A stretch of 43,605 nucleotides of DNA. Source: a virus. Its lineage: Duplodnaviria > Heunggongvirae > Uroviricota > Caudoviricetes. Below the pieces are notes generated by a model. The model had not been told where the DNA came from. It made no database searches and was given only the letters and a program-made list of their open reading frames with translations. The stretch covers positions 1 through 43,605 of IMG/VR virus record IMGVR_UViG_2579778674_000006; one strand, written 5' to 3'. Shown here piece after piece: positions 21,434-22,186 of the stretch (its first letter is position 1; every line of letters begins with the position of its first letter). The position numbers and the translations under genes are program-made.

Positions 21434-21460
21434 GAAAAGAAAAGCCCGCAAAAGCGGGCG
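21434..21460 (-). terminator. Intrinsic terminator upstream of holin (tR'-like)
   Basis: Minus strand reads GCCCGC-TTTT-GCGGGC followed by TTTTCTTTT, about 70 bp upstream of the holin start. Confidence 0.6.
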
Positions 21461-21665
21461 AAACAATATATACAGTAAGGAAAGCACTCTATCCAACAAA
21501 CCACCCACAGTTAATCGGAATAAAAGCAGAGTGCTTATGAATGATCGCCTGCCCGAAGGTTAGTATTTCTGCACAGCAATTTTGCAAAAAAAAGCGATCA
21601 TTCATAACTTAAACGTCTTTCAGTCACTCCGGGATTTCCCATCATCGCAGACTGAAAGACTCTAA

Positions 21666-21740
21666 CTGGAGCGGGCAGCGGGAATCGAACCCGCATCATC
21701 AGCTTGGAAGGCTGAGGTAATAGCCATTATGCGATGCCTG
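21666..21740 (-). tRNA. tRNA-Gly (anticodon UCC)
   Basis: 75-nt sequence GCAGGCATCGCATAATGGCTATTACCTCAGCCTTCCAAGCTGATGATGCGGGTTCGATTCCCGCTGCCCGCTCCA; near-identical to E. coli glyT by recollection; one A-C mismatch in the acceptor stem. Confidence 0.8.
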
Positions 21741-21743
21741 CAT

Positions 21744-21819
21744 ATGGTGCCGACTACCGGAATCGAACTGGTGACTTACTGATTACAAGTCAGTTGCTCT
21801 ACCTACTGAGCTAAGTCGG
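21744..21819 (-). tRNA. tRNA-Thr (anticodon UGU)
   Basis: 76-nt cloverleaf, acceptor GCCGACT/AGTCGGC, anticodon loop CUUGUAA, T-loop TTCGATT, CCA end. Confidence 0.75.
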
Positions 21820-21821
21820 CA

Positions 21822-21898
21822 CTGGACCGCCACCGGGGACTCGAACCTCGCACACTCAACTTAAAGGGTTGACGCTCTTTCCTGATGAACTGGTGACG
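21822..21898 (-). tRNA. tRNA-like gene, anticodon UUU if the loop is read canonically (Lys?), with unusual C33
   Basis: 77-nt cloverleaf, acceptor CCGTCAC/GTGGCGG with one G-U pair, anticodon loop CCUUUAA, T-loop TTCGAGT, CCA end; one T-stem mismatch. Confidence 0.5.
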
Positions 21899-21899
21899 G

Positions 21900-21975
21900 T
21901 TGGTGGCCCTTGCTGGATTTGAACCAGCGACCTGGCGATTATGAGTCGCTCGCTCTCACCACTGAGCTAAAGGGC
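21900..21975 (-). tRNA. tRNA with CAU anticodon (Met or lysidine Ile2, ileX-like)
   Basis: 76-nt cloverleaf, perfect acceptor GGCCCTT/AAGGGCC, anticodon loop CUCAUAA, T-loop TTCAAAT, CCA end. Confidence 0.8.
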
Positions 21976-22093
21976 CGGGCGCAGGATAATAACGTTACGA
22001 AATCAATGTTGCAAGCATTCAAAAATCACCTGGTTAAAAATCACCCTTAGCTCCTCCACCAGCGCATTCACCATGTCTATCCGAGATAAGTGG

Positions 22094-22133
22094 CACAAAA
22101 AAACCCGCTTGTGGGCGGGTTTTGTTTGCTTTT
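22094..22133. terminator. Hairpin with flanking A-run and T-run just downstream of the Q-like gene
   Basis: AAAAAAA-CCCGC-TTGTGG-GCGGG-TTTTGTTTGCTTTT; terminator-like in both orientations. Confidence 0.5.
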
Positions 22134-22186
22134 GCCATCACGTACAAAATCGGCAAAATATCAGATTTGCATGAAATATATGCCTT

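What the first reader, a model, noticed from the sequence alone, without database searches (positions are those of the whole stretch)
21434..22140. Four phage-borne tRNAs and a stack of hairpins between the Q-like gene and the holin
Four tRNA genes (Gly-UCC, Thr-UGU, one with loop CCUUUAA, one with CAU) sit where Stx phages carry tRNAs and toxin cargo. The third has C33 and a T-stem mismatch, so it may be a pseudogene or a non-canonical decoder. The segment also holds a bidirectional terminator-like hairpin right after the Q-like gene (22094-22133), a 14-bp-arm inverted repeat (21535-21548 / 21594-21607) with an internal T8 run, an 11-bp-stem hairpin abutting the tRNA-Gly 3' end (21614-21660), and a tR'-like terminator (21434-21460). 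These are likely the late promoter/antitermination apparatus, but the Q-like protein is not lambda-Q-like.
Basis: partly seen in the sequence, partly recalled or inferred. Interest (0 to 1): 0.4.

Follow-up and report, generated by a model that had tools for sequence, protein, structure and literature searches.

The report
Prophage tRNA cassette with structured trailer
Between the late-gene activator Q and the lysis genes of an E. coli lambdoid prophage lies a common, mobile four-tRNA cassette, one of whose tRNAs is decayed in this copy, followed by a conserved folded RNA trailer of unknown role that no RNA family database lists.

Summary
ARAGORN finds four tRNA genes, and every hairpin sits at the stated coordinates and folds better than shuffles.

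The setting is the late leader of an E. coli lambdoid prophage with a phage-82-type Q and an S21-type holin. The hairpin right after Q is the real tR'.

The four tRNAs form a mosaic cassette with its own promoter-like site:
- an ileX/ileZ-type tRNA-Ile2(CAU);
- a paralogue of Stx-phage argN with anticodon UUU and C33;
- near-exact copies of host thrU and glyT.

Relatives of the third tRNA pass tRNA models. The window's allele has three further changes and fails them, so it is probably weak or dead here.

The three hairpins after tRNA-Gly are not antitermination apparatus. They are a conserved, strand-specific RNA trailer shared with phage HK639 and other phages that have unrelated Q genes. Compensatory base changes support the structure. 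Hairpin 1 has an invariant k-turn-like loop and always starts 5-7 nt after a tRNA end, or after a remnant of one. It is absent from Rfam, and its function is unknown.

The parts
22187..22882 (-). Late antiterminator gene Q, phage-82 family
   Evidence: The 231-aa ORF hits Pfam PF06323 at E = 2.3e-91. It is 77% identical to phage 82 Q and 74% to phage 434 Q. No solved structure was found by sequence.
22175..22203 (-). pR'-like late promoter (-35 TTGCAA, 17 nt, -10 TATATT) overlapping the Q stop codon
   Evidence: Found by the consensus scan. Both hexamers and the first ~25 transcribed bases are conserved in phage 434, downstream of its Q82-like gene. Activity was not tested.
22094..22126 (-). 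tR'-equivalent intrinsic terminator, ending a short leader RNA of roughly 75 nt
   Evidence: A 9-10 bp GC-rich stem followed by U7; -16.4 kcal/mol, z = -3.1. It aligns with the annotated terminator of phage 434, which has a different stem sequence at the same place. The leader gives weak sub-threshold Rfam matches to isrK and isrJ.
21986..22014 (-). Cassette promoter-like site (TTGCAA, 17 nt, TATTAT, then a GC-rich discriminator) ending about 10 nt before the first tRNA
   Evidence: Found. It is conserved in the Stx2 phage F349 and in PhiR47_1, although their upstream DNA differs. Homology with PhiR47_1 stops exactly at the -35 hexamer. Activity was not tested.
21901..21976 (-). tRNA-Ile2 type (anticodon CAU), ileZ/ileX homologue
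   Evidence: Found by ARAGORN, scores 72.5 bits on Rfam, and PGAP names it tRNA-Ile. It matches K-12 ileX at 68 of 76 positions, including a compensated pair. It is identical in 108 of 119 viral loci.
21823..21899 (-). argN-lineage tRNA with anticodon UUU, C33, an A51.C63 mismatch and, in this allele, C8
   Evidence: ARAGORN calls it Lys(UUU). The Rfam tRNA model gives under 18 bits here but 44.4 bits for the commonest allele and 43 bits for argN. PGAP omits it in an identical copy but names a near-commonest allele tRNA-Lys. The family cloverleaf is 96.8% paired, with two compensated pairs.
21745..21820 (-). tRNA-Thr(UGU), a copy of host thrU with one change (G45A)
   Evidence: The commonest prophage allele is identical to K-12 thrU.
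21667..21741 (-). tRNA-Gly(UCC), a copy of host glyT with two pair-breaking changes (G3A, U11C)
   Evidence: It scores 51.4 bits on Rfam, against 64.9 for the commonest allele, which equals glyT. PGAP does not annotate it in an identical copy.
21615..21660 (-). Trailer hairpin 1: an 11+2 bp stem, an invariant GAUGA/GA internal loop (k-turn-like; 21646-21642 and 21629-21628) and a 4-bp cap. It starts 6 nt after the CCA end of tRNA-Gly.
   Evidence: -22.5 kcal/mol, z = -4.5. Across 12 distinct sequences the long stem is 100% paired and 5 pairs show compensatory change; 0 of 500 shuffles reach the covariation score. The covariance model gives 78 bits on the minus strand and 19 on the plus strand.
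21535..21607 (-). Trailer hairpin 2: 14-15 bp outer stem, U8 run, inner 8-bp helix
   Evidence: z = -4.7. Four compensated pairs against HK639-type copies.
21482..21536 (-). Trailer hairpin 3: 9-bp outer stem plus a G.U-rich inner helix
   Evidence: z = -4.4. Three compensated pairs against HK639-type copies.
21434..21459 (-). Distal intrinsic terminator (GCCCGC UUUU GCGGGC, then a U-rich tail), 60 nt before the holin start
   Evidence: -13.7 kcal/mol, z = -5.2. It aligns with a terminator annotated in HK639 that has a compensated stem. The stem is weaker in many related prophages.
21159..21402 (-). S21-type holin with an MKSM dual start, preceded by a small hairpin that sequesters the Shine-Dalgarno sequence (21402-21381)
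   Evidence: Pfam PF04971 at E = 1.4e-35. The hairpin is -10.1 kcal/mol with z = -1.9, which is weak.

Best explanation
The interval is the late-operon leader of an E. coli lambdoid prophage. It is built from two modules.

**Module 1, the Q82-type antitermination unit.** A pR'-like promoter overlaps the end of Q. It is followed by a short leader that ends at tR' (22123-22094).

**Module 2, a self-contained and widely exchanged tRNA cassette.** It comprises:
- a promoter-like site;
- tRNA-Ile2(CAU);
- an argN-lineage tRNA carrying UUU;
- copies of host thrU and glyT;
- a roughly 230-nt structured 3' trailer (three hairpins);
- a distal terminator just before the holin.

**Proposed working (inferred).** In the lysogen, any transcription from the cassette promoter ends at the distal terminator, so the lysis genes stay silent. 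After induction, Q-modified polymerase from pR' reads through tR', the cassette and the distal terminator. The tRNAs are then cut out of that long transcript.

The cassette mainly supplies the scarce AUA decoder, and extra ACA and GGA decoders. The trailer hairpins begin right after the last CCA. They most likely define and protect the RNA ends created by tRNA excision, either as the 5' cap of the lysis mRNA or as a stable 3' external spacer RNA.

In this window the UUU, Thr and Gly genes carry drift mutations. The UUU gene is probably poorly functional or dead.
For: **Architecture (shown).**
- Q is 77% identical to phage 82 Q.
- The promoter, leader and terminator are conserved with phage 434, whose curators marked the terminator.
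- The cassette promoter is conserved across three mosaics, and homology ends at the -35 hexamer.

**How common it is.**
- Met-Lys-Thr-Gly is the commonest array: 92 of about 120 viral loci.
- The trailer is present once per genome in 530 of 5426 E. coli genomes.

**tRNA origins.**
- thrU and glyT identity.
- ileX homology.
- argN paralogy with a preserved cloverleaf.
- Canonical relatives on the same scaffold: Lys(UUU) with U33 and a perfect T stem, and Arg(UCU).

**Decay in this copy.**
- The Rfam score of the third tRNA falls from 44.4 bits to under 18.
- Its cloverleaf is 3.8 kcal/mol worse than the minimum-energy fold.
- Divergence from 33 loci carrying all four commonest alleles: Ile 0%, Lys 3.9%, Gly 2.7%, Thr 1.3%, against 2.1% for the non-coding spacer.

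**Codon use in late genes, per 1000.** ATA 6.7, ACA 11.1, GGA 13.8. These are above the values I recall for E. coli K-12 (about 4-5, 7 and 8). AAA is 31.3, not enriched.

**The trailer is a selected RNA structure.**
- 9 compensated pairs against HK639-type copies; 0 of 500 shuffles reach this, and slid controls give 0-4.
- The sense strand folds at -68 kcal/mol against -51 for the antisense strand.
- Hairpin 1 covaries across at least 7 lineages.
- Hairpin 1 always lies 5-7 nt after a tRNA 3' end or a remnant of one.
Against: - No expression data exist for either promoter, for tRNA charging or for RNA ends. Every mechanistic step is inferred.
- HK639 has no room for a separate promoter before its tRNA: there are 8 nt between the terminator and the tRNA. 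The cassette promoter is therefore not universal.
- The distal terminator stem is weaker in most related prophages. That weakens the insulation argument.
- Hairpin 1 is kept even where the upstream tRNA has decayed or is absent. A role limited to tRNA processing does not explain this.
- AAA is not a rare codon, so codon supply does not explain a Lys(UUU) gene.
- AGA and AGG are the most enriched rare codons here (5.2 each per 1000), yet this cassette has no tRNA for them.
Confidence: 0.65

Rival explanations
1. Anti-defence reading. The cassette supplies nuclease-resistant replacement tRNAs. The UUU tRNA sits on a non-host scaffold and would survive tRNA-Lys(UUU)-targeting nucleases such as PARIS AriB or PrrC. 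Thr(UGU), and Asn(GUU) in HK639, cover the other PARIS targets.
For: - AriB cleaves E. coli tRNA-Lys(UUU), Thr(UGU) and Asn(GUU) at U36AAUC|A41. Changing U39, A41 or U16 blocks or impairs cleavage (PMC12409363).
- The phage UUU tRNA reads U36AAGUU41 and has C16 (sequence).
- The HK639 Asn tRNA is on a non-host scaffold and reads U36AACCG41.
- Codon supply does not explain a Lys(UUU) gene.
Against: - The commonest phage Thr is identical to host thrU, so it keeps both the AriB site and the P2-OLD CNG motif. Extra host thrU gave little or no protection against P2-OLD (PMC12445682).
- C16 and the stem sequence are properties of the whole argN scaffold, not a Lys-specific adaptation.
- C33, A51.C63 and the U73 discriminator make efficient lysylation and decoding doubtful.
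- Variants within the C33 group break stems about as often as they keep them: 4 against 6 by my count.
- The window allele fails tRNA models.
Confidence: 0.12
2. Passenger reading. Only ileZ matters. The UUU, Thr and Gly genes are redundant or dead passengers that travel with ileZ because they are tightly linked to it: 1-3 nt separate neighbouring genes. The third gene is a pseudogene across the whole C33 group, not only in this window.
For: - ileZ departs from its commonest allele in only 9% of viral loci, against 31-43% for the other three.
- In the window lineage the three evolve as fast as the non-coding spacer.
- C33 and the T-stem mismatch are fixed in the E. coli group, whereas canonical relatives exist elsewhere.
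- A 14-locus subgroup has a 1-nt deletion in the D stem.
Against: - The commonest C33 allele still scores 44 bits, and PGAP names it tRNA-Lys.
- All stem differences from argN and the canonical relatives keep pairing.
- The phage Gly shows a compensated C6-G67 to U6-A67 change in 11 loci.
- The commonest Thr and Gly alleles stay identical to the host genes. That suggests constraint or gene conversion, not free decay.
Confidence: 0.3
3. The trailer is a regulatory RNA in its own right. It would be a tRNA-operon 3' external spacer released by processing, which acts in trans (for example as an sRNA sponge) or binds a protein through the k-turn-like loop. It would not be merely a processing or stability element.
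For: - Hairpin 1 is conserved, with covariation and an invariant internal loop, across phages with three different Q families.
- It persists where the upstream tRNA is degenerate or missing.
- The trailer ends at an intrinsic terminator with a U tail.
- From memory, not tested here: E. coli 3'ETS-leuZ and the tyrT rtT RNA are functional tRNA trailers.
Against: - No target or binding partner was identified.
- Hairpins 2 and 3 are replaced by unrelated long hairpins in other lineages. That fits a generic structural role better than a sequence-specific one.
- From memory, E. coli has no L7Ae-type k-turn binding protein.
Confidence: 0.2
4. The hairpin stack is part of the late promoter/antitermination apparatus, for example a Q-utilisation element or a put-like RNA.
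For: - Its position between Q and the holin.
- The homologue is in HK639, a phage I recall (from memory) as using RNA-mediated antitermination in its early operons.
Against: - The Q82-type promoter, leader and terminator are complete upstream, at 22203-22094.
- The hairpin stack occurs with Q genes of unrelated families.
- It is absent from phage 434 and from Stx phages, which have the same or other Q types.
- It is physically tied to the tRNA 3' end.
- A cis antiterminator placed downstream of a constitutive tRNA promoter would switch on lysis genes in lysogens.
Confidence: 0.05
5. DNA-level feature: the inverted repeats are a small transposable element (MITE), a protein operator or a cruciform.
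For: A perfect 14-nt inverted repeat.
Against: - One copy per genome, always in the same prophage context.
- Many G.U pairs and a 17-19 kcal/mol advantage for the sense strand.
- The covariance model gives 78 bits on one strand against 19 on the other.
Confidence: 0.02

Closest known systems
ileZ-argN-argO tRNA cassette of Stx phages (933W type; here Stx2a_F349, AP012530)
   Same: It holds the same position, between Q/tR' and the late genes. The promoter-like site is the same. The ileZ gene is identical. The second gene is a paralogue on the same scaffold, sharing the A51.C63 T-stem mismatch. Identity over ileZ-argN is 89%.
   Different: The second gene reads UUU with C33 rather than UCG with U33. 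The third slot holds copies of host thrU and glyT rather than argO. There is no toxin cargo. A structured trailer follows the last tRNA; it gives no hit in the Stx phage locus.
Phage 82 / phage 434 Q-dependent late leader (pR', short leader RNA, tR'); lambda 6S RNA by analogy
   Same: Q is 74-77% identical. The -35, -10 and initial transcribed sequence are conserved. The terminator is at the same place.
   Different: The leader is 19 nt longer than in phage 434. A tRNA cassette is inserted between tR' and the lysis genes. Q binding and pausing were not tested.
[quoted passage not shown]
   Same: A phage-encoded tRNA with anticodon UUU that differs from the host at positions 39-41 and 16. These are the positions shown to matter for AriB cleavage.
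   Different: This is a temperate lambdoid prophage, and the scaffold derives from an Arg tRNA lineage. The tRNA has non-canonical C33 and a T-stem mismatch. The phage Thr copy is host-identical and so predicted to be cleavable. No functional data exist.
Functional tRNA-operon trailers: E. coli 3'ETS-leuZ, tyrT rtT RNA / tRNA-linked repeats, and T4 stable RNAs C and D in its tRNA cluster (recalled from memory)
   Same: A structured RNA lies immediately 3' of the last tRNA of an operon and ends at the operon terminator. In HK639 and in metagenomic copies, a 3' tRNA fragment precedes it, as in tRNA-linked repeats.
   Different: There is no sequence or Rfam similarity: no rtT or other family matched at E up to 5. 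Release and stability of the RNA have not been shown.
Kink-turn (k-turn) RNA motif, e.g. Kt-7 (consensus recalled from memory)
   Same: Reading 5' to 3': a canonical helix ending in C-G, a 3-nt bulge (GAU), tandem G.A/A.G, then a second helix. The first pair of that second helix is variable and often non-Watson-Crick (U.G, A.G, U.U). All the defining positions are invariant in 12 sequences.
   Different: This is only a sequence signature. No 3D, chemical-probing or protein-binding evidence exists, and I know of no L7Ae-type partner in E. coli.

Membership tests
Canonical elongator tRNA (third gene, 21823-21899) | Cloverleaf with 7/4/5/5-bp stems | tested here: inconclusive
   The acceptor, D and anticodon stems pair, using G.U at 4-69 and 11-24. 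The T stem has an A51.C63 mismatch. The cloverleaf is 3.8 kcal/mol less stable than the minimum-energy fold.
Canonical elongator tRNA (third gene, 21823-21899) | Near-universal U8 and U33 | tested here: not met
   C8 (window 21892) and C33 (window 21866) are read directly from the sequence. The commonest allele has U8 but also C33. A relative in L248 has U33.
Canonical elongator tRNA (third gene, 21823-21899) | Passes tRNA detection models | tested here: inconclusive
   ARAGORN accepts it as Lys(UUU). The Rfam tRNA model gives under 18 bits against a threshold of 29. PGAP omits it in an identical copy. The commonest allele scores 44.4 bits, and PGAP names a close allele tRNA-Lys. tRNAscan-SE itself was not available.
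Canonical elongator tRNA (third gene, 21823-21899) | Aminoacylation with lysine and decoding of AAA/AAG | not testable with these tools
   The UUU anticodon is present. The discriminator is U73, whereas the host tRNA-Lys has A73 (recalled from memory).
tRNA-Ile2 (lysidine-dependent CAU tRNA) for 21901-21976 | Homology to ileX/ileY rather than to Met tRNAs | tested here: met
   It matches K-12 ileX at 68 of 76 positions, and C4-G69 and C5-G68 are kept. PGAP names it tRNA-Ile. The lysidine modification itself cannot be tested.
Q82-type late antitermination unit | Q protein of the phage 82 family | tested here: met
   PF06323 at E = 2.3e-91; 77% identity to phage 82 Q, X92588.
Q82-type late antitermination unit | Promoter directly downstream of Q, followed by a promoter-proximal terminator | tested here: met
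   Consensus promoter at 22203-22175 and terminator at 22123-22094. Both are conserved in phage 434, where the terminator is annotated.
Q82-type late antitermination unit | Q binding element, sigma-dependent pause and Q-dependent read-through | not testable with these tools
   A -10-like GATATT lies at about +7 to +12 of the predicted transcript. This is my own reading and has no functional test.
Intrinsic (Rho-independent) terminator, for 22094-22126 and 21434-21459 | GC-rich stem-loop followed by a U run | tested here: met
   and (-16.4 and -13.7 kcal/mol; z = -3.1 and -5.2). Termination efficiency was not tested.
Conserved structured RNA (trailer hairpins 1-3) | Compensatory base-pair changes beyond controls, and strand specificity | tested here: met
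   9 compensated pairs in the three hairpins and 5 in hairpin 1 across 12 sequences; 0 of 500 shuffles reach the covariation score. The sense strand is favoured. Caveat: most of the signal in hairpins 2 and 3 comes from a single diverged lineage, the HK639 type.
Known Rfam family (trailer hairpins) | Match to any of the 4227 Rfam 15 models | tested here: not met
   No match over 21480-21666 at E up to 5.
K-turn motif (hairpin 1 internal loop) | Canonical helix, 3-nt bulge, tandem sheared G.A/A.G, non-canonical helix | tested here: inconclusive
   The sequence signature GC|GAU|GA|NGGG ... CCCN|GA|GY is invariant in 12 sequences, and the 3b.3n pair varies among U.G, A.G and U.U. Formation of the kink was not tested.
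PARIS/AriB-resistant phage tRNA | Lacks the U36AAUC|A41 cleavage context and U16 | tested here: met
   The sequence reads U36AAGUU41 and has C16, compared with the determinants in PMC12409363.
PARIS/AriB-resistant phage tRNA | Functional replacement of the cleaved host tRNA | not testable with these tools
   This needs charging, decoding and rescue assays.

The most novel reading that the evidence does not exclude
The hairpin trailer is a previously undescribed family of phage structured RNA. It is anchored by a k-turn-like hairpin that is born from the 3' external spacer of a phage tRNA operon. It is kept even after the tRNA decays, because it acts on its own: it binds a protein, or acts in trans, to set late-gene expression or lysis timing.

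Alongside it, the gene slot after ileZ is an anticodon-switching platform (UCG, UCU, UUU, and 6- and 8-nt loops) on a non-host scaffold that escapes host-directed tRNA nucleases.
Probability: 0.2. Interest if true: 0.65.

Novelty: new variant of a known kind. Interest (0 to 1): 0.45.

Why it matters
About one in ten complete E. coli genomes carries this cassette and trailer. Annotation of it is inconsistent: PGAP lists two or four tRNAs depending on the allele, and nothing at all for the trailer.

Three points make it worth recording.
- The Stx-phage ileZ-argN slot turns out to be one case of a wider phage tRNA lineage that changes anticodon between Arg and Lys on a non-host body. That bears on the current question of whether temperate phages carry tRNAs for codon supply or to survive tRNA-cleaving defences such as PARIS, PrrC and P2 Old.
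- Host thrU and glyT copies inside prophages are a clean example of host tRNA capture. In this window they also show relaxed constraint.
- The trailer, especially the k-turn-like hairpin 1, is a covariation-supported RNA motif that is absent from Rfam. It sits directly upstream of the lysis genes in phages with unrelated Q proteins, and deletion experiments and Northern blots could test it simply.

Tried and rejected
1. **Genome-contig scan.** It returned ordinary tRNAs of unrelated phyla and only two Escherichia/Shigella loci, so it gave no taxonomic breadth.
2. **Short-pattern scans.** The 16-mer and 15-mer viral scans were mostly chance matches. nhmmer and regular-expression filters recovered the true homologues.
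3. **Covariation within the E. coli prophage set.** There was none, because the sequences are too similar. The signal appeared only once HK639-type and other lineages were added.
4. **Literature.**
   - There were no hits for ileZ/argN/argO together.
   - There were no hits for the tRNA or hairpin sequences.
   - The 2011 paper on HK639 antiterminator RNAs is not held.
   - The OLD paper has no supplementary text held, so I could not check its phage tRNA library.
5. **PDB search with Q.** No hits.
6. **Dispersed-repeat or MITE idea.** Rejected: there is one copy per genome.
7. **Homology of other trailers.** Other spacer classes behind the same tRNA-Gly are not homologues of this trailer. The hairpin 1 model does not hit them, although they carry their own long hairpins.
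8. **GcvB resemblance.** A 9-nt identity between hairpin 1 and the GcvB sRNA sequence as I remember it was judged chance. Rfam's GcvB model does not match.
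Full report
**1. What is in the sequence**

All relevant features lie on the minus strand.

ARAGORN finds four adjacent tRNA genes:
- CAU at 21976-21901
- 'Lys' UUU at 21899-21823
- Thr UGU at 21820-21745
- Gly UCC at 21741-21667

Upstream is a 231-aa ORF (22882-22187) that hits PF06323. Downstream are an S21-type holin (PF04971), a YdfR/DUF1327 protein, a lysozyme and Rz/Rz1.

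Each hairpin folds far better than shuffles: z = -3.1 to -5.2. The whole 294-nt spacer between tRNA-Gly and the holin gives z = -5.6.

**2. Where it comes from**

The 821-bp interval is 100% identical to many E. coli chromosomes and lies in a lambdoid prophage. The window is a mosaic relative of the prophage in strain 2009C-3133, at 95-99% identity and without that strain's IS element. It sits next to host tRNA-Ser(CGA) and tRNA-Asn genes, and it carries DicF and sok RNAs.

In RefSeq copies identical over this interval, PGAP annotates only tRNA-Ile and tRNA-Thr. In a strain with near-commonest alleles it annotates all four, including 'tRNA-Lys'. Authors of related phage genomes annotate Met, Lys, Thr and Gly.

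**3. The late leader**

Q is 77% identical to phage 82 Q and 74% to the Q82-like protein of phage 434.

A sigma-70-type site (TTGCAA, 17 nt, TATATT) overlaps the Q stop codon. A GC-rich hairpin with a U7 tail follows at 22123-22094.

Aligned with phage 434, both promoter hexamers and the first ~25 transcribed bases are conserved. The hairpin falls exactly on the terminator that the 434 curators annotated, and its stem sequence differs. This hairpin is therefore the tR' equivalent, ending a leader of about 75 nt. That leader gives weak, sub-threshold Rfam matches to isrK and isrJ.

It aligns with an annotated terminator in HK639.

**4. The tRNA cassette**

A second promoter-like site lies at 22014-21986: TTGCAA, 17 nt, TATTAT, then a GC-rich discriminator. 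It ends about 10 nt before the first tRNA. It is conserved in an Stx2 phage and in PhiR47_1, although their upstream DNA differs. Homology with PhiR47_1 stops at the -35 hexamer. I read this as the left edge of a mobile cassette. That is inference.

Among about 120 IMG/VR loci sharing the third gene's T arm, the arrays are:

| Array | Loci |
|---|---|
| Met-Lys-Thr-Gly | 92 |
| Met-Lys-Arg(UCU) | 12 |
| Met-Arg(UCG)-Arg(UCU), the Stx type | 7 |

The four genes:
- **CAU gene.** It matches K-12 ileX at 68 of 76 positions. It is identical to Stx-phage ileZ and invariant in 108 of 119 loci.
- **Thr.** It equals K-12 thrU apart from G45A. The commonest prophage allele is thrU exactly.
- **Gly.** It equals glyT apart from G3A and U11C, and both changes break base pairs. 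The commonest prophage allele is glyT exactly.

The third gene is treated in the next section.

**5. The third tRNA**

It is a paralogue of Stx-phage argN (anticodon UCG). By my count there are thirteen differences. All five that fall in stems keep pairing, and one is a full compensation (G30-C40 to A30-U40). Both genes share the A51.C63 T-stem mismatch.

Relatives on the same scaffold with a perfect T stem exist elsewhere:
- a canonical Lys(UUU) with loop CUUUUAU, i.e. U33 (L248)
- an Arg(UCU) (L267)
- variants with 8-nt and 6-nt anticodon loops

Across six family members the cloverleaf is 96.8% paired. The slot after ileZ therefore holds a phage tRNA lineage that has switched anticodon between Arg and Lys.

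The E. coli form always has C33. The commonest allele still scores 44.4 bits on the Rfam tRNA model, and argN scores 43.

The window allele adds C4U, U8C and C11U. It drops below 18 bits, and its cloverleaf is 3.8 kcal/mol worse than the best alternative fold.

Compared with 33 loci carrying all four commonest alleles, the window differs by:

| Segment | Divergence |
|---|---|
| ileZ | 0% |
| UUU gene | 3.9% |
| Gly | 2.7% |
| Thr | 1.3% |
| non-coding spacer | 2.1% |
| holin | 1.0% |

I conclude that ileZ is constrained, that the other three are under relaxed constraint in this lineage, and that this copy of the third tRNA is probably weak or dead. ARAGORN accepts the gene. The Rfam model and PGAP reject this allele but accept its close relatives.

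**6. Why carry these tRNAs**

Late-gene codon use per 1000 codons is ATA 6.7, ACA 11.1, GGA 13.8, AAA 31.3, AGA 5.2 and AGG 5.2.

Set against the E. coli K-12 values I recall (roughly 4-5, 7, 8, 34, 2 and 1), the codons read by the Ile2, Thr(UGU) and Gly(UCC) tRNAs are about 1.5-fold enriched. AAA is not enriched.

Codon supply therefore fits three of the genes but not the UUU gene. It also leaves the most enriched rare codons, AGA and AGG, uncovered.

An alternative is escape from defence nucleases. PARIS AriB cleaves host Lys(UUU), Thr(UGU) and Asn(GUU) at U36AAUC|A41, and changes at positions 39, 41 or 16 block or impair cleavage (PMC12409363). The phage UUU tRNA reads U36AAGUU41 and has C16. 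HK639 carries a non-host Asn(GUU) reading U36AACCG41.

Against this reading:
- The phage Thr is host-identical, and extra thrU gave little or no protection against P2 Old (PMC12445682).
- The 'resistant' positions are general properties of the argN scaffold.
- C33, the T-stem mismatch and U73 make efficient function doubtful.

I give this reading about 0.12.

**7. The hairpin trailer**

The spacer occurs once per genome in 530 of 5426 E. coli genomes and is unannotated. It is therefore not a dispersed repeat. Within E. coli prophages it is too uniform to show covariation.

A search at lower identity found a 77%-identical homologue in phage HK639. It also lies between a Q-like gene and the holin, and it is preceded by tRNA-Asn and by a 3' fragment of the Gly tRNA.

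Against HK639-type copies, nine base pairs in the three hairpins changed on both sides while staying paired. In total 98% of cells are paired, 0 of 500 shuffles reach the observed value, and slid controls give 0-4.

The transcript-sense strand folds much better than the antisense strand: -68.1 against -51.2 kcal/mol in the window, and -63.3 against -44.6 in HK639. The structure is therefore selected at the RNA level.

**8. Hairpin 1**

Further lineages were found in IMG/VR and in metagenomes.

In 12 distinct sequences from at least seven lineages, the 13-bp helix is 100% paired and five pairs show compensatory change. The internal loop 5'-GAUGA / GA-3' and its closing C-G pair are invariant. 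The adjacent pair varies among U.G, A.G and U.U.

As I recall it, that is the consensus of a simple k-turn: a canonical helix, a 3-nt bulge, tandem G.A/A.G, then a non-canonical helix. It is a sequence signature only and was not tested structurally.

Other properties:
- The hairpin always begins 5-7 nt after a tRNA CCA end, usually tRNA-Gly(UCC).
- It is retained where that tRNA is degenerate or gone.
- The upstream Q genes in these loci belong to at least three sequence types.
- A covariance model scores 78 bits on the window's minus strand and 19 on the plus strand. It finds nothing in Stx phage, in phage 434 or in other spacer classes.
- Rfam has no match, and the literature search found none.

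Hairpins 2 and 3 are less widely conserved. Other lineages have different long hairpins in their place.

**9. Most likely mechanism**

These steps are inferred, not shown.

In the lysogen, transcripts from the cassette promoter yield tRNAs and stop at the distal terminator, which keeps the holin silent. After induction, Q-modified polymerase from pR' ignores tR' and the distal terminator.

RNase P and RNase E then cut the tRNAs out of the long late transcript. The trailer starts 6 nt after the CCA end. It would provide either a structured 5' end for the lysis mRNA or a stable 3' external spacer RNA.

Weak points:
- There are no expression data.
- The distal terminator is weaker in many relatives.
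- HK639 lacks a separate tRNA promoter.
- Hairpin 1 outlives its tRNA, which hints at a role beyond processing.

**10. Verdict**

The tRNA cassette is a variant of the known lambdoid/Stx-phage tRNA module. The late promoter and terminator are ordinary for a Q82-type phage.

The unusual parts are:
- the anticodon-switched, C33-bearing argN-lineage tRNA, which is decayed in this window;
- the covariation-supported trailer with its k-turn-like hairpin, which appears to be an undescribed RNA motif of unknown function.

Noticed in passing
window 25485-25659 (-) and 31265-31316 (+): The sok antitoxin RNA (111.7 bits) lies beside a hokD-like ORF, and DicF RNA (76.7 bits) lies in a dicB/ydfC-type region. 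A Qin/Kim-like immunity region thus sits inside a prophage that otherwise looks complete (terminase, portal, capsid and tail genes are present).
   Followed up: no
window 34664-36898: The prophage integrase end abuts host tRNA-Ser(CGA) (35742-35831, -) and tRNA-Asn(GUU) (36823-36898, +). The prophage therefore sits at the serU/asn tRNA locus. In strain 2009C-3133 the corresponding integrase is frameshifted and an IS4-family element is inserted. The IS element is absent from the window; its integrase was not checked beyond an open ORF at 34664-35689.
   Followed up: partly
window 21375-21402 (-): The S21-type holin has an MKSM dual start. Its Shine-Dalgarno GGAGG is paired into a small hairpin (-10.1 kcal/mol, z = -1.9). 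This recalls the start-choice structures described for dual-start holins (from memory).
   Followed up: partly
L012, L024, L254, L257, L260, L272 and others (IMG/VR loci): An 82-nt tRNA-like gene on the same argN-type scaffold has a perfect T stem and an aberrant, long anticodon arm. ARAGORN calls it Val(AAC) or Tyr(AUA). It recurs in more than 10 viral contigs.
   Followed up: no
L269 (8-nt loop); L258 and L268 (6-nt loop): These scaffold relatives have anticodon loops of abnormal size. L269 has CUUUUUAU, a four-U run that resembles a frameshift-suppressor geometry. They could equally be decay products.
   Followed up: no
L247 (phage HK639, NC_016158) 2305-2710: The HK639 late leader has a non-host-scaffold tRNA-Asn(GUU) only 8 nt after its first annotated terminator. 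After it come a 3' fragment of tRNA-Gly, the hairpin trailer, and three more terminators before the holin.
   Followed up: partly
L010, L032, L052 (about 130-210 nt downstream of tRNA-Gly): Other phage modules behind the same tRNA-Gly carry a different, roughly 30-bp near-perfect hairpin (GGAAUGGUGCAUUAU...). It is not homologous to the window's trailer.
   Followed up: no
L549 (E. coli H1827/12) 1348-1424: This allele of the UUU/C33 tRNA has G72A, giving a C1.A72 end. PGAP still annotates it as tRNA-Lys.
   Followed up: no
window 21586-21593: The T8 run inside hairpin 2 varies in length among prophages (6 to 9 T, sometimes with a C). This looks like slippage at a homopolymer.
   Followed up: no
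window 22144-22154 with 22115-22125: A leader segment can pair with the 5' arm of tR' (11 nt, 82% complementary), which would be a possible alternative structure. The segment is deleted in phage 434, so it is probably not essential.
   Followed up: partly
L513 and L484 (metagenome contigs): Copies of hairpin 1 lie next to type VI secretion sheath-like genes (L513) or an EAL-domain-like gene (L484; my reading of the ORF translations, not run against Pfam). These look like chromosomal or remnant contexts rather than a Q-to-lysis leader.
   Followed up: no
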